A stretch of DNA of 52,184 nucleotides, from positions 1 through 52,184 of IMG/VR virus record IMGVR_UViG_3300036852_000533. The stretch is one strand, 5' to 3'. Below, one piece after another: positions 1,383 through 11,601 of this stretch. The stretch comes from a virus. Lineage: Duplodnaviria; Caudoviricetes. The notes beneath the pieces were generated by a model. It was given only the letters and a program-made list of their open reading frames with translations, was not told where the DNA came from and made no database searches. A program made the position numbers and the translations under genes. Position 1 is the first letter of the stretch. The number at the start of each line of letters is the position of its first letter.

Positions 1383-1697
1383 ATGGACACTCAAAGTGCA
1401 AAGCCGATCGGAGCGCAGGACAATGGCGCGGTTCGCTGCACTGTCGGGTTAGGCGCACGGAGTGAGTCAGCAACGAGTAAATGGCGAAGAAACAACCCAG
1501 AGAGGGCACTGGCCAAACACCTGAAAGATGAAGCGAAGAAAAACGAACGAAAACACGAAGCGGGCGGGCGCGCAGAAACCCAAACGAAATGTGTCGAGTG
1601 CGGGATGGTCTTTGACCGCACGGAGGCACACGTCCGAGGCTTCCGAATCCTCAAAGGAAACCGGGGCTACAACTGCATCTGCGATGAGTGCGCCTAA
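1383..1697 (+). CDS. Cassette-borne Zn-finger-like protein, paralog of 8685..8990
   Basis: CVEC...CICDECA; stop TAA lies in the GCCTAAC core box; reads through an attC half-site. Confidence 0.7.
   Translation: MDTQSAKPIGAQDNGAVRCTVGLGARSESATSKWRRNNPERALAKHLKDEAKKNERKHEAGGRAETQTKCVECGMVFDRTEAHVRGFRILKGNRGYNCICDECA
1426..1454 (-). repeat. attC half-site (R''/L'' arm only)
   Basis: Plus strand GCGCGG-TTC-GCTGCACT-GTCGG-GTTAGGC, same layout as the arms of the intact sites; partner arm not found. Confidence 0.6.
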
Positions 1698-1797
1698 CGT
1701 CGCATTAAGCCACGCCGATGAAACCTGAACCGTCCAATCTCGCCGCGAACCCTGTGCCGCCAACGCCCCCGGCGCTGGCTTCAGTAAGTGGTTATGC
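1692..1797 (-). repeat. attC recombination site (intact)
   Basis: Plus strand GCCTAAC-GTCGC-ATTAAGCCACGCCG ... CGGCGCTGGCTTCAGT-AAGTG-GTTATGC; imperfect hairpin with unpaired bases on the right arm. Confidence 0.8.
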
Positions 1798-2023
1798 GGT
1801 GGGTGACAAAGTGACGGCAACGAGAAACATCTGGAGTGCTGCCAACGAGGACTCGCCCATGTATCTCTGCGCTTATCGTGGCGACATCTTAGAAATCCGC
1901 CGACTTGGTTCGTGTGGGTGGGCCTGCTACGTCGCACATCCCGAAAAAGAATCCGGCCCAATGTTTGGTGTCGAGGCTGGTGAAATCAAACCGCATAACG
2001 CAAAATCACAAAAGGGCAAATGA
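1718..2023 (+). CDS. Cassette-borne hypothetical protein
   Basis: Starts inside the attC loop; body bounded by the inverted pair GTTATGCGGT (1791) / ACCGCATAAC (1990). Confidence 0.7.
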   Translation: MKPEPSNLAANPVPPTPPALASVSGYAVGDKVTATRNIWSAANEDSPMYLCAYRGDILEIRRLGSCGWACYVAHPEKESGPMFGVEAGEIKPHNAKSQKGK

Positions 2024-6049: not shown

Positions 6050-6340
6050 ATGCAAACGAAAATTTTACTCTGCAAGAAATGCGGAAAATATCTGGACGTA
6101 TGCAAATGCGCAGGGGCAAAGCCTCAGTTGCATCCAACGGGTGTTATGCGGCCACACCATAGAAAGAATATAGTACGCGAAGCAAAATCTGAGATCGAGT
6201 GGTGTAAGGATCAGATTGCGCTGACTCAACTCGGCGGTGAAACAAAGCCATACACGCGAGCCGAATGGATAGTCTGTATGAATCGAAGAATCGAGGCGAA
6301 TCAACAAATACTCAAAAAGCACAATGCTCTGGCCGCATAA
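6050..6340 (+). CDS. Cassette-derived hypothetical protein
   Basis: Segment 6143-6341 bounded by the 12-bp inverted pair GTTATGCGGCCA / TGGCCGCATAAC; stop in the core box. Confidence 0.65.
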   Translation: MQTKILLCKKCGKYLDVCKCAGAKPQLHPTGVMRPHHRKNIVREAKSEIEWCKDQIALTQLGGETKPYTRAEWIVCMNRRIEANQQILKKHNALAA

Positions 6341-6347
6341 CGAACCC

Positions 6348-6929
6348 ATGACAAAAAAAGAATGTATCATCAAAGCCTGTCAGGTAATCCGCAAGCGGGT
6401 GCGCTTCGATGGCGCGTCAATCTCGCTGCCGACGACTCCGTTTCCGGGTAATGACACGAAGGCAATCCGTGAGGCAACGCGCCTCTACGTGGAATCGTGG
6501 ATCGTGCCACTACTCGACTCCATCGAATCCGGCGACATGACCCGGATCCGACAATACTACGAATTTGAGAAGGGCCACAAAATGGAGTCGCCCAACGTAA
6601 AGGTGGGCGGTCAGAGTGGGCGCGAGAATATGAAAAATGAAACTCCGAGAAGCGATGCTGCCGAAGAACGAACACGGCTGAACTACGAGATGTCTCGCGA
6701 GTGCGGCGACCCGCCATATCCCGGTGCTGACATGGCAGACTTTGCTCGTGGGCTGGAACGCGAACTGAATGAGGTGCTGGCGGTGTTCCGCCACCGGCAT
6801 GTGAACAACGGCGAGAATGATGGCTGTAAAAAGTGCGGCCTCGATCTGCGCCACGAGATACATGAGCGCGTGGCCGCGCAGCCCAACGGCCCGGATGAGC
6901 GGCCCGGCGCTAACACCCCAAAACTCTGA
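6348..6929 (+). CDS. Hypothetical protein, probably two genes in frame (second start at 6630) joined across an attC remnant
   Basis: GCCCAAC-GTAAAG-GTGGGCGG half-site at 6590 precedes an internal MKNETPRSD start. Confidence 0.55.
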   Translation: MTKKECIIKACQVIRKRVRFDGASISLPTTPFPGNDTKAIREATRLYVESWIVPLLDSIESGDMTRIRQYYEFEKGHKMESPNVKVGGQSGRENMKNETPRSDAAEERTRLNYEMSRECGDPPYPGADMADFARGLERELNEVLAVFRHRHVNNGENDGCKKCGLDLRHEIHERVAAQPNGPDERPGANTPKL

Positions 6930-6991
6930 CATGCAAAACGACCTTCTAACTGCTGACGCTCCGCCGGGTTCACACCAGCGCATGGTTGTGC
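6881..6991 (-). repeat. attC site (intact cores)
   Basis: GCCCAAC-GGCCCG-GATGAGC-GG-CCCGGCG ... CGCCGGG-TTC-ACACCAGC-GCATG-GTTGTGC. Confidence 0.75.
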
Positions 6992-7004
6992 CCATACTAC
7001 CGAC

Positions 7005-7319
7005 ATGCACACAAACGAAAAACTAATCTTCGAGGAAATTACAAATCCGAATGTCCTGCCAAAACTCAAGCTGGATGTCGTGGAATGTCCCGACTGTCAC
7101 CACCGCATTGCAGTGCCGGTGAAATATACTGACTGGCAAGAAACCGCTGAACGCTATCGGCGCGCATACGAAGCAATGATGACCAAACTCGGCGTGCTGC
7201 TCAAAGAGGCCGGTGAACAATTCGACGTGCCGTTGGTGGAATACTTCGACACCGAACGGCAACTGATGATCCAAATGCTCAACGAAATAATCGCTGGACT
7301 CGATAAACGCGATGAATAG
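7005..7319 (+). CDS. Cassette-borne hypothetical protein
   Basis: Bounded by GTTGTGCC (6985) / GGCACAAC (7319); CPDC motif. Confidence 0.7.
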   Translation: MHTNEKLIFEEITNPNVLPKLKLDVVECPDCHHRIAVPVKYTDWQETAERYRRAYEAMMTKLGVLLKEAGEQFDVPLVEYFDTERQLMIQMLNEIIAGLDKRDE

Positions 7320-7454
7320 GCACAACGCCCGAACTGAGCGACCGGAGGCGAAACATGAATAGCGATATACGCATGATGAATGTGGAGGATCAGCAAGACC
7401 TAAAAACTTTCGAGCAGGACGAGCCTCCAGTTCGCTCCAGTGAGCTTTTTAGAT
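7320..7454 (-). repeat. attC site with mutated R'' core
   Basis: GCACAAC-GCCCGA-ACTGAGC-GA-CCGGAGGC ... GCCTCCAG-TTC-GCTCCAGT-GAGCTT-TTTAGAT (GTT changed to TTT). Confidence 0.7.
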
Positions 7455-7729
7455 GCGTCGAAGTATCAAGTCAACTAAAAGACAATCTGACCGTGATGAA
7501 ACGGCTAATCGGCGACAAATGGCAAGAGTCGTCGAAGGAATATCGGGTCATCCTGCTCGCAGTGATGGCCGCAAGCGGAGACACCAACCCGCTAGGCTGC
7601 GCGATACCGATGGCAAAGGAAATGTCCGAACGAGGACACAGCCCGCTCATGCTGCTGGCCGTCGCAACGGAAATGAGCGAAGCATCTGACGTAGAGCGCA
7701 GCGACGGCGCTCAGAAAGACTCACGATGA
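7355..7729 (+). CDS. Cassette-borne hypothetical protein
   Basis: GGAGG RBS and ATG inside the attC; stop inside the next attC. Confidence 0.7.
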   Translation: MNSDIRMMNVEDQQDLKTFEQDEPPVRSSELFRCVEVSSQLKDNLTVMKRLIGDKWQESSKEYRVILLAVMAASGDTNPLGCAIPMAKEMSERGHSPLMLLAVATEMSEASDVERSDGAQKDSR

Positions 7730-7774
7730 AAAAGAAAACACAACAGCGCCGTTCGCTGCCGCGACGGGCTATGA
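7684..7774 (-). repeat. attC site with both cores mutated
   Basis: ATCTGAC-GTAGAG-CGCAGC-GA-CGGCGCT ... AGCGCCG-TTC-GCTGCCGC-GACGG-GCTATGA. Confidence 0.65.
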
Positions 7775-7980
7775 CTCCGAAGGGTTGGCGGCGACTGCTC
7801 GTGGGAGAGATGACCAGAAAAGGCGACTGGCTGGAAAATGTCGGAGATGGTCCGTGGACACGTCTGCGCGTCCGTTACTGCCTTAAAGAAGTAGAAGGTG
7901 ATTGGCGTGCCATCATCCGCCGGACGACCTCTCGCAAAAGGAGTCCTAACGCAGACTTCAGACACCCCGCCACACCATGA
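7726..7980 (+). CDS. Cassette-borne basic hypothetical protein
   Basis: Start in the attC loop with ATGA overlap; ends GCTATGACTCC / GGAGTCCTAAC are imperfectly complementary. Confidence 0.6.
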   Translation: MKKKTQQRRSLPRRAMTPKGWRRLLVGEMTRKGDWLENVGDGPWTRLRVRYCLKEVEGDWRAIIRRTTSRKRSPNADFRHPATP

Positions 7981-8023
7981 CTACCGAACTTAAAATGACG
8001 CGCGATGGCGGGGTTGTCTGGAC
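7944..8023 (-). repeat. Truncated attC (R'' lost)
   Basis: TCCTAAC-GCAGAC-TTCAGACA-CCCCGCCA ... TGGCGGGG-TT-GTCTGGAC; no GTT core follows. Confidence 0.6.
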
Positions 8024-8031
8024 TCTCTAAC

Positions 8032-8322
8032 ATGAACGCAACATATCCAACCGTCGAAGAGCAGGAGAAACTAGAACCTGCCAGAACTGTGCCCCGCTGT
8101 CGTGAATCGCAACGCTGGCTGAAAGAAGCCGACAAAATCATCGCGGCATACCCGGAGAAACACCGCGAGTATCACGCAATGGTGCTGCGGCATACCTACG
8201 AGAACGGGCTGTATGACACGAACTGTGCAATCAAATCTCTCATGGCGATAAAGGAACTCATCATCAAGGGTGAATACTCTGACGAGCGCGTGCTGGAACT
8301 GATAAACGAAGGGCTGCAATGA
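8032..8322 (+). CDS. Hypothetical protein
   Basis: ORF in the coupled early operon. Confidence 0.65.
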   Translation: MNATYPTVEEQEKLEPARTVPRCRESQRWLKEADKIIAAYPEKHREYHAMVLRHTYENGLYDTNCAIKSLMAIKELIIKGEYSDERVLELINEGLQ

Positions 8323-8522
8323 ATCTCGTGATGCTCATAGAAGAAGGATGCCGGGAAGTCTATGTGAACCCGGAAAGCGTCGAGTCAGTCCAAAATGCCG
8401 CAGGCGGAAAAGACTCCATCTTGTATCTGAAAACCGGGCGAAAGCTGATAGTCACCGGGTCAAGTGGCGATGTAATGTGCAAACTCAAAGGCATACGCTC
8501 GTGGAGAGACGCCCTGAAATGA
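8319..8522 (+). CDS. Small beta-rich hypothetical protein (FlbD-like pattern)
   Basis: VYVNPESVESV..SILYLKTGRKLIVTGS..DV resembles FlbD-like small proteins. Confidence 0.5.
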   Translation: MNLVMLIEEGCREVYVNPESVESVQNAAGGKDSILYLKTGRKLIVTGSSGDVMCKLKGIRSWRDALK

Positions 8523-8692
8523 AAACCTACACTGCCGAAGATTTCAAACGCTGGGGCGCGAAGGGCGGTGCAAAGTCCAAGCGTGTGCTGACCAAAGCAC
8601 AGGCCAAGGCGATGGTCGCCGCACGGGAAAAGAAACTTCGGAAAACCAAGCGCGTGGCCCGGCGTGCTAACGCAGAGGTCAGCCATGAGTGA
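8519..8692 (+). CDS. Small basic KGG-motif protein
   Basis: FKRWGAKGGAKSKR; very Lys/Arg rich; stop inside the attC. Confidence 0.65.
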   Translation: MKTYTAEDFKRWGAKGGAKSKRVLTKAQAKAMVAAREKKLRKTKRVARRANAEVSHE

Positions 8693-8762
8693 CGCGCCCG
8701 CGACATCCGAATCCACGCAAACCGTCAACGCGGCACTCATTGGCTGCACCGACGGGTTAGGC
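8665..8762 (-). repeat. attC site (intact)
   Basis: TGCTAAC-GCAGAG-GTCAGC-CA-TGAGTG ... CACTCA-TTG-GCTGCACC-GACGG-GTTAGGC. Confidence 0.82.
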
Positions 8763-8990
8763 GCACGGGATTGGAAGGCATACCGGCGCATCTGGAACAA
8801 GACGCACCCTGAAAGCATCAAGTCAGCACAGAAAAAACTGAGAACCAAAAAACATGAACAAGGCGAAATCGTCAACCAAGCCGAGTGCAAATGCACCGTA
8901 TGCAAAAGCGTCTTCAACCGCGATGACGCGCACCTGCGGGGATACCGATTCCTGTCGCGCTTCGTATGCGTGTGCGACGAGTGCGCCTAA
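8685..8990 (+). CDS. Cassette-borne Zn-finger-like protein, paralog of 1383..1697
   Basis: GLGAR...KHE.G...KC..C..VF.R..AH.RG.R...C.CDECA shared with 1383..1697; ends GTTAGGCGCAC / GTGCGCCTAAC. Confidence 0.75.
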   Translation: MSDAPATSESTQTVNAALIGCTDGLGARDWKAYRRIWNKTHPESIKSAQKKLRTKKHEQGEIVNQAECKCTVCKSVFNRDDAHLRGYRFLSRFVCVCDECA

Positions 8991-9110
8991 CGACCAAGCT
9001 CAGCGACCTGTGCCGGAGACAGGCGTTGAGCGGAAAGGAAACGATGAATGAACCAACAGCGGTCGTGCGTGAAAAGCGCGGCACAGGTTCTCTGGAGCGC
9101 ATGGTTAGGT
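8985..9110 (-). repeat. attC site (intact)
   Basis: GCCTAAC-GACCAA-GCTCAGC-GA-CCTGTGCCG ... CGGCACAGG-TTC-TCTGGAGC-GCATG-GTTAGGT. Confidence 0.85.
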
Positions 9111-9373
9111 GTGCGTCGTGCAAATACTGGGGAACTAAACCCGGTGAACGCGGCAATCCTCGCCTGCGGTCCTGCAACCATCCAAAGCATGTGATGGGAT
9201 ACCAGTCCGCCGCCGCCGTGCCAGATGACGGAATGATAATCGAATCGGATGAGGGATGGGGCATCGAAGTTGGGCCTCTCTTTGGGTGCGTGAATGGTGA
9301 GGCGAGCACACCTAACGGTGCGCTATGCGACGGGGATGAGCCGCCGCAGACGTTGAAATCGAAACAATCGTGA
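9044..9373 (+). CDS. Cassette-borne Cys-rich hypothetical protein
   Basis: AAGGA RBS and ATG in the attC loop; CASCKYW...GPLFGCV; ends GTTAGGTGTGC / GCACACCTAAC. Confidence 0.75.
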   Translation: MNEPTAVVREKRGTGSLERMVRCASCKYWGTKPGERGNPRLRSCNHPKHVMGYQSAAAVPDDGMIIESDEGWGIEVGPLFGCVNGEASTPNGALCDGDEPPQTLKSKQS

Positions 9374-9410
9374 ACGGCTCATCCCCGTTCGCTGCAGCGC
9401 ATGGTTAGGC
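9310..9410 (-). repeat. attC site (intact)
   Basis: ACCTAAC-GGTGCG-CTATGC-GA-CGGGGATGAGCCG ... CGGCTCATCCCCG-TTC-GCTGCAGC-GCATG-GTTAGGC. Confidence 0.87.
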
Positions 9411-9436
9411 GACTGGAATAATTTTTGGAATAATTT

Positions 9437-9649
9437 ATGAACGAGAAAGAGCAAACCGATCACTTCGCCAACGATGTGGACAACCTGGTAGAACGTTACC
9501 GGAGCGAATACGAGATGAGCTACGCCGCCGTCGTGGGCGTGCTCCAAATGAAAATCCATCTACTGTGCGACGAAGCATCGGAGCGTGGTGATGAAGTCGC
9601 CCAACGTCCGCATAAGCGATGGCGGACACGAGACGTGAAAATTAACTGA
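9437..9649 (+). CDS. Cassette-borne hypothetical protein
   Basis: Ends GTTAGGCGACT / AGTCGCCCAAC; C-terminal tail encoded by the next attC. Confidence 0.7.
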   Translation: MNEKEQTDHFANDVDNLVERYRSEYEMSYAAVVGVLQMKIHLLCDEASERGDEVAQRPHKRWRTRDVKIN

Positions 9650-9687
9650 CGGCATCGCCCGCCATTCGCTTCATGCGGTGGTTAGGC
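9599..9687 (-). repeat. attC site (intact)
   Basis: GCCCAAC-GTCC-GCATAAGC-GA-TGGCGG ... CCGCCA-TTC-GCTTCATGC-GGTG-GTTAGGC. Confidence 0.85.
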
Positions 9688-9708
9688 ATCCGTCGAACCA
9701 ACAAAAAC

Positions 9709-9924
9709 ATGATACATATAATCGAATCCTTCGCCTGCGGACTCGCGTTCGCAATGGGAATAACCTCGTGGTTCTTCATCCGCGACTTGGCGACCGTGAA
9801 AGGTCGCGAAGAACTGAAAAAAGAAATGCACGAACACGCCAAGCGCGTCGAGGACAGGCTGGCTGTCCAAGTCTCGACGATGCTTGTCTGTCTCGACGAA
9901 ATCAAGAAGCGCAAGGATGCCTAA
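9709..9924 (+). CDS. Cassette-borne small membrane-anchored protein
   Basis: N-terminal TM then coiled coil; ends GTTAGGCATCC / GGATGCCTAAC; stop in the core box. Confidence 0.7.
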   Translation: MIHIIESFACGLAFAMGITSWFFIRDLATVKGREELKKEMHEHAKRVEDRLAVQVSTMLVCLDEIKKRKDA

Positions 9925-10023
9925 CGAAAAAGCTGACCGATGAGAGGGAGCGCGCCAACGACGTTCGATTCGAGAGTGAGCCAAACGCGCTCCCTCTCAT
10001 TCGTGTCCAGCGCATTGTTCCCC
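9919..10023 (-). repeat. attC site (intact, belongs to the attI-proximal cassette)
   Basis: GCCTAAC-GAAAAG-CTGACC-GA-TGAGAGGGAGCGCG ... CGCGCTCCCTCTCA-TTC-GTGTCCAGC-GCATT-GTTCCCC. Confidence 0.85.
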
Positions 10024-10044
10024 GACTGGTCGAAAAAGAAAAGC

Positions 10045-10073
10045 TTGACACCACAAGCGGCTTGTGATACAAT
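10045..10073 (+). promoter_or_regulatory. Near-consensus sigma70 promoter with a palindromic operator in the spacer
   Basis: TTGACA-17 nt-TACAAT; spacer contains CACAAGC-G-GCTTGTG (10052-10066). Confidence 0.8.
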
Positions 10074-10083
10074 GCCAGTGAAG

Positions 10084-10461
10084 ATGAAAACTGAACTCAT
10101 CCAAATCGGGCTGACCGCCGCACAGGTGGACTCAGCGGACTGGCTACTCGGCTGCCCTCTCTTTTACGATGCCGCCGAATCACTCGCCCACAACTGGGAC
10201 GAGACACCGGAGCGCGCCGCCGCAATCGTGGCCGCTGCAAAACAAGTGAAGCGTGACGGGCGGACTCTGACGCTGCCAAACGACCATGAGGTAATCGAAT
10301 ACCTGCACCAATACGCCGAGCAACTGGCGGACATGAGCGCAAAGGAATACCTCGATGAACTCGTGGGCAAAGGCATCCCGCACCGTGAAGCTCAATGCAA
10401 GGTCAACGCCGCCGTGCGGTCTGCGGAATCGCTCGCGGAGAAAATCGCCTGCCACCTATGA
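10084..10461 (+). CDS. Hypothetical protein, first gene of the two-gene attI-proximal cassette
   Basis: ATG just downstream of the promoter; ATGA-coupled to the next gene. Confidence 0.7.
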   Translation: MKTELIQIGLTAAQVDSADWLLGCPLFYDAAESLAHNWDETPERAAAIVAAAKQVKRDGRTLTLPNDHEVIEYLHQYAEQLADMSAKEYLDELVGKGIPHREAQCKVNAAVRSAESLAEKIACHL

Positions 10462-10613
10462 ATCCCGAAGCTCGCAAATACCTCGCCAGCATCGGAAGCA
10501 AAGGCGGGAAGGCAACCGGGACAAGCAAGCGGCGTGGGTCTGCCGCCTACTACAAACGAATCTCAAAGCTCGCCGCGAAAGCACGAAAGGCGAAGTCGGG
10601 GAACTCTTATTAA
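10458..10613 (+). CDS. Small basic KGG-motif protein (possible DNA-binding regulator)
   Basis: YLASIGSKGGKATG..RG..YYKRISKLA; stop codon lies within the attI candidate. Confidence 0.7.
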   Translation: MNPEARKYLASIGSKGGKATGTSKRRGSAAYYKRISKLAAKARKAKSGNSY

Positions 10614-10616
10614 GCA
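10598..10616 (-). other. Candidate attI site
   Basis: Minus strand TGCTTAA-TAAGA-GTTCCCC (L box, 5 nt, R box) with no hairpin partner; AGTCGGGGAAC at 10594 is the perfect complement of the cassette's other end GTTCCCCGACT at 10017; immediately upstream of intI. Confidence 0.7.
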
Positions 10617-10626
10617 TCATCCACGC

Positions 10627-11601
10627 ATGTTTAAGGATAATTTCATAACGGTTGCCAGAGCACACGGGTTGCGACTCCAGACCGAACGCGCTTATTACGG
10701 CGCGGCAGCCAAGCATATTAAGTGGCTTGGAGCGAGGTCTGCAAAGGATTTGGAGCGTGATCCGACGAAACAATTCCGGGATTACCTCACCATGCTGGCC
10801 AATGTGAATGGCGATAGAAGCGAAGGCGACGAAGGCATTTCAGCTTCCAGCCAGAATTTGGCATTTCACGCATTGAGATTTCTCTACGAAAAAGTAATCG
10901 GCATCCAGCTTGGAGACCTTTCAAACATTCCGCGCGCAAGCGGGCACGAAAGAATTGTGGATGTGCCCCCTGACGATGTGGCGATAAAACTCGTGCAATC
11001 AGTGCCGGGCGTTAACGGAGTCGCGCTGCGCTTGATCTATGGCACTGCCGGACGGCTCAATGACATTCTGAGATTGCGAGTTAAGGATTTGGACTTCCGC
11101 AGGAAACTCGTGAGCGTGCAGGAGAGCAAGGGTGGTAAATCACGCCTCGTCCCAATGCCGCCTAGTCTGATTCCAGAACTTTCCGCGCTGGTAAAGGAGC
11201 GGGAAAGGATTCACGAGGCAGACTTGGCGGACGGATTTGGGTGGGTTCACATGCCGGGGATGCTGGCCAAAAAATATCCTGGAGAGGAAAACTCGCCCGG
11301 CTGGCAGTACCTGTTCGCATCAGCAACACTTTCCAAAGACCCCATCAGCGGAAAAACGGGGAGGCATCATATCTTTGACGTGACATTGCAACGTGCCTTC
11401 GCCAATGCGCGGCGGAAGTTGCGAATCAAACGGCACTACACTATTCACGGACTCCGCCACGCTGCGGCTCAATGGATGGAGCGCAACGGGGTGACGCGCT
11501 CAACGATTCAGGAAATTCTCGGGCACGAAAATTCGAGTACGACCGACCGTTATCTCCTATCTGGGAAACGCAGCGTGGCGAACGTGCCGACGCCAATCTA
11601 G
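10627..11601 (+). CDS. intI: Integron integrase (IntI-family tyrosine recombinase)
   Basis: N-terminal SAM-like domain (TERAY..SASSQNLAFHALRFLY); catalytic R (GRLND), K (SKGGK), HGLRH, LGH, Y (TTDRY); IntI-specific insert GWVHMPGMLAKKYP..GWQYLF...SKDPISGKTGRHH. Confidence 0.92.
   Translation: MFKDNFITVARAHGLRLQTERAYYGAAAKHIKWLGARSAKDLERDPTKQFRDYLTMLANVNGDRSEGDEGISASSQNLAFHALRFLYEKVIGIQLGDLSNIPRASGHERIVDVPPDDVAIKLVQSVPGVNGVALRLIYGTAGRLNDILRLRVKDLDFRRKLVSVQESKGGKSRLVPMPPSLIPELSALVKERERIHEADLADGFGWVHMPGMLAKKYPGEENSPGWQYLFASATLSKDPISGKTGRHHIFDVTLQRAFANARRKLRIKRHYTIHGLRHAAAQWMERNGVTRSTIQEILGHENSSTTDRYLLSGKRSVANVPTPI

What the first reader, a model, noticed from the sequence alone, without database searches (positions are those of the whole stretch)
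6881..10613. All cassette ORFs are antisense to attC polarity and face intI
Seen: the arm with the extra unpaired bases and the R''-5 nt-L'' layout is always the right-hand arm, so the canonical attC top strand is the minus strand, consistent with attI at about 10604. Yet every ORF is on the plus strand. Known: in classical integrons most ORFs follow attC polarity and are read from Pc near attI. Inference: this array is transcribed from phage early promoters toward intI, so new cassettes enter at the promoter-distal end, the reverse of the classical expression logic.
Basis: partly seen in the sequence, partly recalled or inferred. Interest (0 to 1): 0.88.

Follow-up and report, generated by a model that had tools for sequence, protein, structure and literature searches.

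The report
Phage integron with back-to-front cassettes
This complete phage genome carries a real integron (a gene-capture system) whose recombination sites point the usual way relative to the integrase, but whose captured genes all lie on the opposite strand and read toward the integrase, a layout that also predominates in other phage-borne integrons and is rare in bacterial ones.

Summary
Observation confirmed. The window is a complete 52-kb phage genome. It has intI (10627-11601, +), an attI junction at 10603|10604, five intact attC hairpins (8665-10023) and two or three decayed ones back to 6881.

Polarity rests on three tests: position of the extra bases, a class 1 reference integron in the same orientation, and a covariance model built only from bacterial attC sites (8 of 8 significant hits on +). 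All make the + strand the recombined bottom strand, the classical polarity relative to intI.

The genes are nevertheless on +. All 13 ORFs rank first of six frames. Two tested ORFs have homologue families. The longest minus ORF gave only a shadow hit.

All three close relatives with upstream sequence share the layout. With my own detector and strand caller, arrays 5' of intI gave 32 plus / 13 minus cassettes in viral contigs against 11 / 123 in bacterial genomes and metagenomes (p = 6e-16).

Transcription from phage promoters is inferred, not shown. The first cassette has its own strong promoter-like site. Four literature searches found no description. This scan noted the same reversal before on other phage DNA.

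The parts
6881..6991 (+). Left-most, decayed attC (left box GCCCAAC 6881-6887, right box GTTGTGC 6985-6991); the + strand is the bottom strand
   Evidence: Covariance model hit 6878-6994, +, 25.6 bits, E 1.8e-4. It folds no better than shuffles. Its right box is the exact complement of the next left box.
7005..7319 (+). Cassette ORF, 104 aa
   Evidence: Own frame ranks first of six; no Pfam or PHROG family.
7320..7454 (+). Decayed attC (left box GCACAAC 7320-7326; right-hand GTT lost)
   Evidence: Model hit 7317-7457, +, 20.6 bits, E 0.003; no stable fold for 7318-7400.
7355..7980 (+). Two overlapping ORFs, 7355-7729 (124 aa) and 7726-7980 (84 aa); the second runs 30 nt past the 7949|7950 boundary
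   Evidence: own frame first; the margin for 7726-7980 is small.
7944..8035 (+). attC remnant: left box TCCTAAC 7944-7950, hairpin with a bulged T in the right arm, right box lost
   Evidence: Fold z = -2.3. Not found by my detector or by the model.
8005..8692 (+). Three translationally overlapping ORFs: 8005-8322, 8319-8522 and 8519-8692 (a KGG-motif basic protein)
   Evidence: Listed variants in relatives' contigs are 9 synonymous and 6 non-synonymous for the last two ORFs.
8665..8762 (+). Intact attC; the + strand is the bottom strand
   Evidence: Fold -26 kcal/mol, z = -2.7; 2 extra bases in the right arm; model 34.0 bits on +. Relatives' contigs diverge from the window at 8666 and 8672, which is the left box.
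8685..8990 (+). Cassette ORF, 101 aa; starts inside the attC; stop TAA lies in the next left box
   Evidence: 22 cluster representatives at E <= 1e-3. Most match from residue about 25-34 onward, the part encoded after the attC.
8985..9110 (+). Intact attC
   Evidence: model 35.6 bits on + versus 9.0 bits on minus.
9044..9373 (+). Cassette ORF, 109 aa, Cys-rich; ends 57 nt inside the next cassette
   Evidence: Its nearest Atlas clusters are viral hypothetical proteins at score 0.90-0.91, which is a lead only.
9310..9410 (+). Intact attC
   Evidence: Fold -34.6 kcal/mol, z = -6.6; model 30.5 bits on +.
9437..9649 (+). Cassette ORF, 70 aa; ends 44 nt inside the next cassette
9599..9687 (+). Intact attC
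   Evidence: Fold z = -3.8 with single-base bulges T and C in the right arm; model 47.4 bits on +.
9673..9924 (+). Cassette ORF, 83 aa (or 71 aa from 9709); stop TAA lies in the next left box
   Evidence: Own frame is first but only marginally. My caller preferred a minus ORF, 9.5 against 8.4. Variants: 9 synonymous / 6 non-synonymous on +; 6 / 9 and 1 / 13 plus 1 stop for the two minus ORFs.
9919..10023 (+). Intact attC of the attI-proximal cassette (right box GTTCCCC)
   Evidence: Fold z = -3.7; 3 extra bases in the right arm; model 22.7 bits on +. Its right box is the exact complement of the attI junction box.
10045..10073 (+). Sigma-70-like promoter inside the first cassette (TTGACA-17-TACAAT, TG before the -10)
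   Evidence: 11 of 12 matches. This is a consensus match only.
10084..10613 (+). Two overlapping ORFs of the first cassette, 10084-10461 (125 aa) and 10458-10613 (KGG-motif, 51 aa); the second stops in attI
   Evidence: 12 homologues at 64-92% identity with 38 invariant columns.
10598..10626 (+). attI: junction box GGGGAAC 10598-10604, crossover between 10603 and 10604, then a conserved simple site with no hairpin
   Evidence: Against relative L004: 12 of 34 positions identical left of the crossover, 46 of 56 right of it. No fold (z = +1.45).
10627..11601 (+). intI, integron integrase, 324 aa
   Evidence: TIGR02249 231 bits over positions 10-311 of 315, below the curated cut-off of 265. 34% identical to IntI1, with no gap across the IntI-specific insertion. 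It is the only tyrosine recombinase in the genome, and no serine recombinase was found.

Best explanation
This is a working-looking integron built into the rightward early gene row of a phage.

**Site polarity.** IntI, attI and the attC sites have the classical mutual polarity. The + strand of every attC is the recombinogenic bottom strand, cleaved at AA|C in the left-hand box. Each cassette therefore runs from the C of one left box to the AA of the next, and new cassettes enter at 10603|10604.

**What differs.** The cassettes are mirror images of bacterial ones. The attC lies in front of its gene, and the gene is written on the bottom strand. [quoted passage not shown]

**Expression (inferred, not shown).** The array and intI are read as one rightward unit, from upstream phage promoters, from promoters inside cassettes, or both.

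**Scope.** The layout is shared by the window's integrase clade and predominates in other viral-contig integrons. It looks like an adaptation of integrons to one-directional phage gene modules.
For: **1. attC polarity**
- Extra bases are in the 3' arm of the + strand in 5 of 5 intact sites.
- The attC of aadA2 in a class 1 integron laid out the same way has the same geometry.
- A model trained only on bacterial sites hits 8 of 8 times on +. In 16 viral loci and 2 reference loci it hits 46 of 46 times on +.
- With my detector, arrays 5' of intI are 93 bottom-strand-plus / 4 minus / 8 ambiguous in viral and metagenome loci, and 106 / 1 / 4 in bacterial genomes. Shuffled DNA (444 kb) gave 0 sites.

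**2. Real cassettes**
- The right box of one site is the exact complement of the left box of the next in 5 of 6 cases, with 1 mismatch in the sixth. Boxes within a site differ at 1-3 positions.
- The lone box at 10598-10604 is followed by non-folding sequence that is conserved in L004 (78% IntI identity), while the cassette to its left is unrelated.
- L005 has a tandemly duplicated cassette.

**3. Genes on +**
- 13 of 13 ORFs rank first in their own frame.
- ORF 10084-10461 has 12 homologues. ORF 8685-8990 has 22 cluster representatives.
- Listed variants in relatives: 21 synonymous / 17 non-synonymous in + ORFs, against 14 / 39 plus 1 stop in minus ORFs.

**4. Relatives**
- L004, L005 and L076 all have + ORFs ending at or in the left box or attI.
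- Among 20 ORFs from viral arrays, 7 of 15 + ORFs had a Pfam family: Mom, two N6_N4 DNA methylases, two PAPS reductases, DUF4406 with a dATP/dGTP pyrophosphohydrolase, and DUF4326. None of the 5 minus ORFs did.

**5. Contrast with bacteria**
- Cassettes: viral 32 plus / 13 minus / 5 uncalled, against 11 / 123 / 4 in genomes plus metagenomes; Fisher p = 6e-16.
- Without the window's clade: 27 / 12 against 10 / 123, p = 2e-14.
- By locus majority: 16 / 4 against 3 / 45, p = 2.5e-9.

**6. Embedding in the phage**
- The 4 kb upstream of the array is + strand in 7 of 8 viral plus loci.
- A + strand promoter-like site lies in the first cassette. No minus-strand promoter-like site lies between attI and the first 1.2 kb of intI.
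Against: - There are no expression data and no recombination data.
- IntI scores below NCBIfam's curated cut-off (231 against 265 bits).
- The three distal sites are decayed.
- Four + ORFs run 22-57 nt past their cassette boundary. Their C-termini would change on shuffling, which is odd for freely mobile units.
- The outer extra base is C, not G, in 4 of 5 sites, although C is also common in the bacterial training sites.
- Folding energies of the two strands are nearly equal: sum -131.8 against -127.1 kcal/mol.
- One window cassette (9688-9918) was called minus by a hair, and one was uncalled.
- My strand caller is a heuristic. Thirteen viral cassettes were called minus and 5 loci were ties.
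- Most of the 230 fetched loci gave no callable cassette: calls came from 25 viral, 19 metagenome and 33 genome loci.
- IMG/VR 'viral' contigs can include bacterial flanks.
- The host is unknown, so a sigma-70 consensus may not apply.
Confidence: 0.8

Rival explanations
1. Fossil array. The integron no longer works. The hairpins are relics, or now serve as RNA or regulatory elements, and the + strand genes are ordinary fixed phage early genes. Their orientation would then say nothing about a living cassette system.
For: - The distal sites are decayed.
- Several ORFs run across cassette boundaries.
- IntI is below the curated family cut-off.
- A second soil run holds the same array at 100% identity in the pieces listed.
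Against: - The five attI-proximal sites are intact and score 23-47 bits with a bacterial attC model.
- Box complementarity between neighbouring sites is perfect in 5 of 6 cases.
- Relatives with 51-78% IntI identity carry unrelated cassettes at the same junction, and L005 has a duplicated cassette.
- The catalytic-region alignment to IntI1 has no gaps.
- Assemblies of relatives break just upstream of intI. That is expected of a variable array, though it is weak evidence.
Confidence: 0.1
2. In this integrase family the minus strand is the recombined strand. The genes would then be in the normal cassette orientation, and the entry site would lie at the far (left) end of the array.
For: - The sites are near-palindromes, and the box complementarity between neighbours is symmetric, so it cannot tell the strands apart.
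- On the minus strand the outer extra base would be G, the usual identity.
- Stop codons of + ORFs sit in the left box, as canonical ORFs often stop in R''.
Against: - Extra bases are on the 3' arm of + in 5 of 5 sites, as in aadA2.
- The bacterial model hits 8 of 8 times on +, and at most 9 bits on minus.
- The box at 10598-10604 is followed by a conserved sequence that does not fold, next to intI. That is an attI, not the complete attC this reading requires.
- Relatives' contigs diverge at the left boxes (8666, 8672, 8985), not at the right boxes of those sites.
- Arrays 5' of intI are bottom-strand-plus in 199 of 204 polar sites across 230 loci.
Confidence: 0.04
3. The real cassette genes are the minus-strand ORFs (for example 8360-8917, 8914-9309 and 9642-9914). 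The + strand ORFs would be chance shadows.
For: - Long minus ORFs exist, up to 185 aa.
- One cassette was called minus marginally.
- One database protein, P0134, matches part of ORF 8360-8917.
Against: - 13 of 13 + ORFs beat all minus frames.
- Two + ORFs have homologue families.
- The 185-aa minus ORF spans an attC and a cassette boundary. It has no self-entry among called proteins. Its one hit covers only residues 47-119, the exact shadow of the conserved KGG ORF.
- Variants are mostly non-synonymous in the minus frames.
Confidence: 0.03

Closest known systems
Classical integrons (class 1 mobile integrons; sedentary chromosomal integrons)
   Same: - IntI with the IntI-specific insertion, and attI next to the intI 5' end.
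- attC hairpins with R and L boxes and extra bases.
- The bottom strand has the same polarity relative to intI.
- Box complementarity between neighbouring sites.
   Different: The genes lie on the bottom strand, with the attC in front of the gene rather than behind it, so they converge on intI instead of diverging from it. No outward Pc-like promoter was found. In my bacterial controls, 123 of 134 called cassettes have the classical orientation. Nivina et al. [quoted passage not shown]
Inverted-integrase integrons (Treponema type)
   Same: The cassette genes and intI are transcribed in the same direction.
   Different: In those integrons intI is transcribed toward attI, and the array lies 3' of intI with the attC sites co-oriented with it (PMC3607928 and PMC4889954, passages read). 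My loci of that type have the bottom strand on minus in 23 of 24 polar sites. Here the array lies 5' of intI, attC polarity is classical, and only the genes are flipped.
Phage-borne integrons and CALINs of Qi et al. 2023 (PMC9892861)
   Same: Integron parts in phage genomes; phage attC sites recombined by IntI1 through their bottom strand.
   Different: Their complete integrons are a class 1 integron in P1, fragments of Vibrio chromosomal integrons, and the Shewanella M16-3 integron. I checked M16-3: it has the classical layout, with cassette CDS on minus and a LexA box. In the passages and section 3.3 that I read there is no mention of genes reversed relative to attC. Their supplementary tables were not seen.
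Reverse-oriented, self-promoted cassettes in chromosomal integrons (for example toxin-antitoxin cassettes)
   Same: Individual cassettes whose genes do not depend on Pc and carry their own promoter (PMC13108822, passages read). The first cassette here has a promoter-like site.
   Different: In bacteria these are a minority: 8 of 96 and 3 of 42 cassettes in my controls. Here the whole array is reversed, and so are most cassettes in viral contigs.

Membership tests
Integron (complete: intI + attI + attC cassettes) | Integron integrase: a tyrosine recombinase with the IntI-specific additional domain | tested here: met
   TIGR02249 covers positions 10-311 of 315 at 231 bits, below the curated cut-off of 265. 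It aligns to IntI1 at 34% identity with no gap across the insertion (ALERKYP...RRHH region) and with the catalytic R, K, H-x-x-R, H and Y aligned.
Integron (complete: intI + attI + attC cassettes) | attC sites: imperfect hairpins with RYYYAAC and GTTRRRY boxes and extra bases on one arm | tested here: met
   Five intact sites. Eight hits with a model built from bacterial attC sites.
Integron (complete: intI + attI + attC cassettes) | attI next to intI, where cassettes are inserted | tested here: met
   A lone box at 10598-10604 is followed by a non-folding sequence conserved in L004, with unrelated cassettes to its left. Insertion activity itself was not tested.
Integron (complete: intI + attI + attC cassettes) | Cassette genes co-oriented with the attC top strand and expressed from a Pc promoter at the attI/intI end | tested here: not met
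   All genes are on the bottom strand. No minus-strand promoter-like site lies near attI, but that is a weak consensus scan.
Integron (complete: intI + attI + attC cassettes) | IntI-catalysed attC x attI and attC x attC recombination | not testable with these tools
   Only indirect evidence: different cassettes at the same junction in relatives, and a duplicated cassette.
Inverted-integrase integron group (Treponema type) | intI transcribed toward attI; attC sites in the same orientation as intI; array 3' of intI | tested here: not met
   The array is 5' of intI and the bottom strand is +.
CALIN (cluster of attC sites lacking an integrase) | No intI within reach of the attC cluster | tested here: not met
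   intI starts 23 nt after the crossover.

The most novel reading that the evidence does not exclude
Phage integrons form a separate, mirror-image branch of the integron world.

- They have their own pool of cassettes, written on the recombinogenic strand with the attC in front of the gene.
- The pool is exchanged among phages and is rich in counter-defence cargo, such as DNA methylases, Mom and nucleotide-modifying enzymes.
- Because the array is read as part of a phage operon, the same transcription would express the cassettes and drive intI. It would also expose the bottom strand as the non-template single strand, coupling cassette shuffling to infection.
Probability: 0.4. Interest if true: 0.92.

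Novelty: new variant of a known kind. Interest (0 to 1): 0.82.

Why it matters
Integron theory holds that bottom-strand selectivity exists so that promoterless genes land downstream of Pc. An integron family that keeps the selectivity but flips every gene breaks that link.

- **A third architecture.** It adds to the classical and inverted-integrase layouts, and it seems tied to phage genomes.
- **Different expression and regulation.** Expression would come from phage or cassette promoters, and intI would lie at the end of the operon rather than under SOS control.
- **An open origin.** It asks how such mirror-image cassettes arise.
- **A role in phage evolution.** Cargo in related phage arrays is DNA-modification enzymes. 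These integrons may therefore be the phage-side counterpart of the bacterial defence-cassette 'biobanks'.
- **A practical consequence.** Integron annotation pipelines that assign cassette genes by attC strand would mis-annotate these arrays.

Tried and rejected
I could not see the contigs of the roughly 80 close IntI homologues, or of the cassette-protein homologues.

**Searches that found nothing**
- A single-protein scan of viral contigs with IntI.
- A viral-contig scan with the cassette protein family A2.
- tblastn of 16 plus and 15 minus window ORFs against the 155 loci held then. The only hit was a shadow of intI.
- Pfam and PHROGs on the window's cassette ORFs gave nothing above the cut-offs.
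- Rfam holds no attC family. The only hit was a chance miRNA match at E = 0.13.
- The protein Atlas gave no usable hit for ORF 10084-10458 and only leads for ORF 9044-9370.
- No RNA holder was listed for this DNA.
None exceeded 39% identity, so absence of the window's IntI clade from bacterial genomes is suggested, not shown.

**Methods dropped**
- A sense-versus-shadow codon ratio, because off-register antisense ORFs scored high. I replaced it with six-frame likelihoods.
- Longest-ORF calling, because antisense ORFs are sometimes longer (for example 78 aa against 70 aa in cassette 9411-9598).

**Limits of what was run**
- The IntI tree is the quick tree; the careful search did not finish. It shows the window clade as 4 of 4 plus, and plus loci in at least 6 separate places.
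- Arrays 3' of intI in viral contigs gave unclear strand calls: 6 plus, 4 minus, 6 uncalled.

**Not run or not seen**
- Structure and complex predictions were not run.
- Supplementary tables of Qi et al. 2023 were not seen and may show gene orientations.

**Literature**
- Four full-text searches found no description of the reversed layout.

Full report
**What the window is.** The window is a whole virus record of 52,184 bases with direct terminal repeats, estimated 100% complete. It encodes an ERF recombinase, a PDDEXK nuclease, a DnaB helicase and a large terminase. The only tyrosine recombinase is the gene at 10627-11601, and no serine recombinase was found. That protein matches the integron-integrase model TIGR02249 over nearly its full length at 231 bits, below the curated cut-off of 265. 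It aligns to IntI1 at 34% identity with no gap across the IntI-specific insertion.

**The sites.** Five hairpins fold well as single strands: 8665-8762, 8985-9110, 9310-9410, 9599-9687 and 9919-10023. In each, the right-hand arm of the + strand carries 2-3 extra bases. The usual pattern is a bulged T, about six pairs, a bulged C or G, then 8-9 nt before the GTT box.

**Calibrating polarity without memory.** I fetched a class 1 integron that lies the same way round, with intI1 on + at the right and aadA2 and dfrA12 on minus at the left. Its aadA2 attC shows the same geometry on its + strand. That strand is antisense to aadA2, so it is the bottom strand. Nivina et al. 2016 (PMC5027507, passages read) give the rule: the bottom strand carries the cleaved AAC in R', and the extra bases lie near L''.

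**An independent model.** I built a covariance model from 23 attC sites of bacterial genomes whose cassettes were all canonical. In the whole window, with filters off, it gave eight hits at E <= 0.003, all on +:
- the five intact sites;
- two decayed ones, 6878-6994 and 7317-7457;
- a separate site at 1689-1800.

The best minus-strand score at any of these sites was 9 bits. A hairpin remnant at 7944-8035 was not detected.

**Cassette boundaries and attI.** The right box of each site is the exact complement of the left box of the next site in 5 of 6 cases, with one mismatch in the sixth. Boxes within one site differ at 1-3 positions. The most telling pair is the non-consensus GTTCCCC (10017-10023) with GGGGAAC (10598-10604).
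- Right of 10604 there is no hairpin.
- The sequence there is conserved in relative L004: 46 of 56 positions, against 12 of 34 left of the crossover.
- The cassette to the left in L004 is unrelated.

That is what an attI junction looks like. The crossover is at 10603|10604, 23 nt before the intI start. Contigs of relatives in two other runs stop resembling the window at 8666 and 8672, and two contigs in a third run begin to resemble it at 8985. All three points lie in left boxes.

**Which strand codes.** A codon model trained on 29 long ORFs elsewhere in the phage ranks the own frame first of six for all 13 + ORFs from 6324 to 10613. Two margins are small.
- ORF 10084-10461 has 12 homologues at 64-92% identity.
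- ORF 8685-8990 has 22 cluster representatives. Most match from the point where the attC ends.
- Listed variants in relatives' contigs are 21 synonymous / 17 non-synonymous in + ORFs, against 14 / 39 plus one stop in minus ORFs.
- As an attempt to refute, I searched the longest minus ORF (185 aa). It has no self-entry among called proteins. Its single hit covers only the stretch antisense to a conserved + ORF.
- One cassette (9688-9918) remains marginal.

**Relatives.** About 80 proteins share 47-79% identity with this IntI. Three loci of this clade with upstream sequence could be fetched: L004, L005 and L076. All show attC sites with the + strand as bottom strand, and + ORFs that end in the left box or in attI.
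- L004 has a Mom-family gene.
- L005 has a duplicated cassette. By my reading, the two copies differ mostly at synonymous positions of the + frame.

**A wider comparison.** I wrote an attC detector that gave 142 sites in 1.44 Mb of loci and none in 444 kb of shuffled sequence.
- Polarity follows the position of the array. For arrays 5' of intI it is 93 / 4 / 8 (plus / minus / ambiguous) in viral and metagenome loci, and 106 / 1 / 4 in bacterial genomes. For arrays 3' of intI, the known inverted-integrase type, it is 23 minus / 1 plus / 7 ambiguous.
- A six-frame strand caller gave the known answer for aadA2 and dfrA12.
- For 5' arrays it called 87 minus / 8 plus / 1 uncalled in bacterial genomes, 36 / 3 / 3 in metagenome contigs, and 13 minus / 32 plus / 5 uncalled in viral contigs including the window. 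Fisher p = 6e-16, and p = 2e-14 without the window's clade.
- Only 25 viral, 19 metagenome and 33 genome loci gave any call.
- Pfam supports the + calls in viral arrays: 7 of 15 + ORFs and 0 of 5 minus ORFs had a family.
- The bacterial attC model hit 46 of 46 times on + in 18 loci.
- In a quick IntI tree, plus loci fall in at least six places.
- The isolate phage integron of Shewanella M16-3 is classical.

**How it probably works.**
- *Shown:* the geometry of the sites, boundaries and genes.
- *Inferred:* IntI recombines the + strand as usual, so these mirror-image cassettes always land with their genes pointing at intI.
- The array continues a + strand gene row, here and in 7 of 8 comparable viral loci.
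- The first cassette has a near-consensus promoter-like site on + at 10045-10073. No terminator-like site lies between the last cassette ORF and intI, and no outward promoter-like site lies near attI. intI is therefore probably read through from the cassettes.
- Stop codons sit in the R' box in 5 of 32 viral plus cassettes, mirroring 29 of 123 bacterial cassettes that stop in R''.
- *Speculation:* the bottom strand is here the non-template strand, so transcription could favour its folding.

**Known or new.** Four full-text searches found only Qi et al. 2023 on phage integrons. The passages and section I read do not mention this reversal, and its supplements were not seen. The Treponema-type inversion is a different arrangement. 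This scan's own notes report the same reversal on other phage DNA. Those notes are unchecked AI notes and are not used as evidence.

Noticed in passing
window 1689-1800: A separate attC site about 5 kb from the main array, between the ERF gene and the PDDEXK nuclease gene, with the same polarity. The bacterial attC model scores it 32.6 bits on + (E 3e-6); my detector gives it only a weak score of 18.
   Followed up: partly
window 8519-8692 and 10458-10613: Two paralogous small basic proteins with a KGG motif. Each is the last ORF of its cassette and reads across the crossover: one stops 22 nt into the next cassette, the other stops in attI. L004's Mom-like ORF ends in the same attI stop codon, with the same last three residues.
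   Followed up: partly
L004, L060, L054, L063, L037, L073 (viral loci): Cargo of reversed cassettes in other viral arrays is typical phage DNA-modification or counter-defence genes: Mom, two N6/N4 DNA methylases, two PAPS-reductase-like proteins, DUF4406 with a dATP/dGTP pyrophosphohydrolase, and DUF4326.
   Followed up: partly
L005 1-470: A tandem duplication of one 243-bp cassette encoding a 50-aa membrane-like ORF, directly upstream of attI.
   Followed up: partly
L004 and L005 (contig starts): Both viral contigs of the window's IntI clade begin only 465-817 nt upstream of intI and are classed as fragments. The assemblies seem to break inside the cassette array.
   Followed up: no
L003, L013, L033, L041, L051, L053 and others: Many viral contigs, among them Virus Rctr41k, have arrays 3' of intI with the bottom strand on minus (the inverted-integrase layout). 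Gene strand calls there were unclear.
   Followed up: no
window 8685-8762, 7355-7454, 9044-9110: Several + ORFs start inside an attC, so part of the hairpin is translated. For ORF 8685-8990, the homologues share mainly the part encoded after the attC.
   Followed up: partly
window 10045-10073: The 17-nt spacer of the promoter-like site holds a palindrome (CCACAAGCGGCTTGTG), which could be an operator. It was first noted by the first-stage reader.
   Followed up: no
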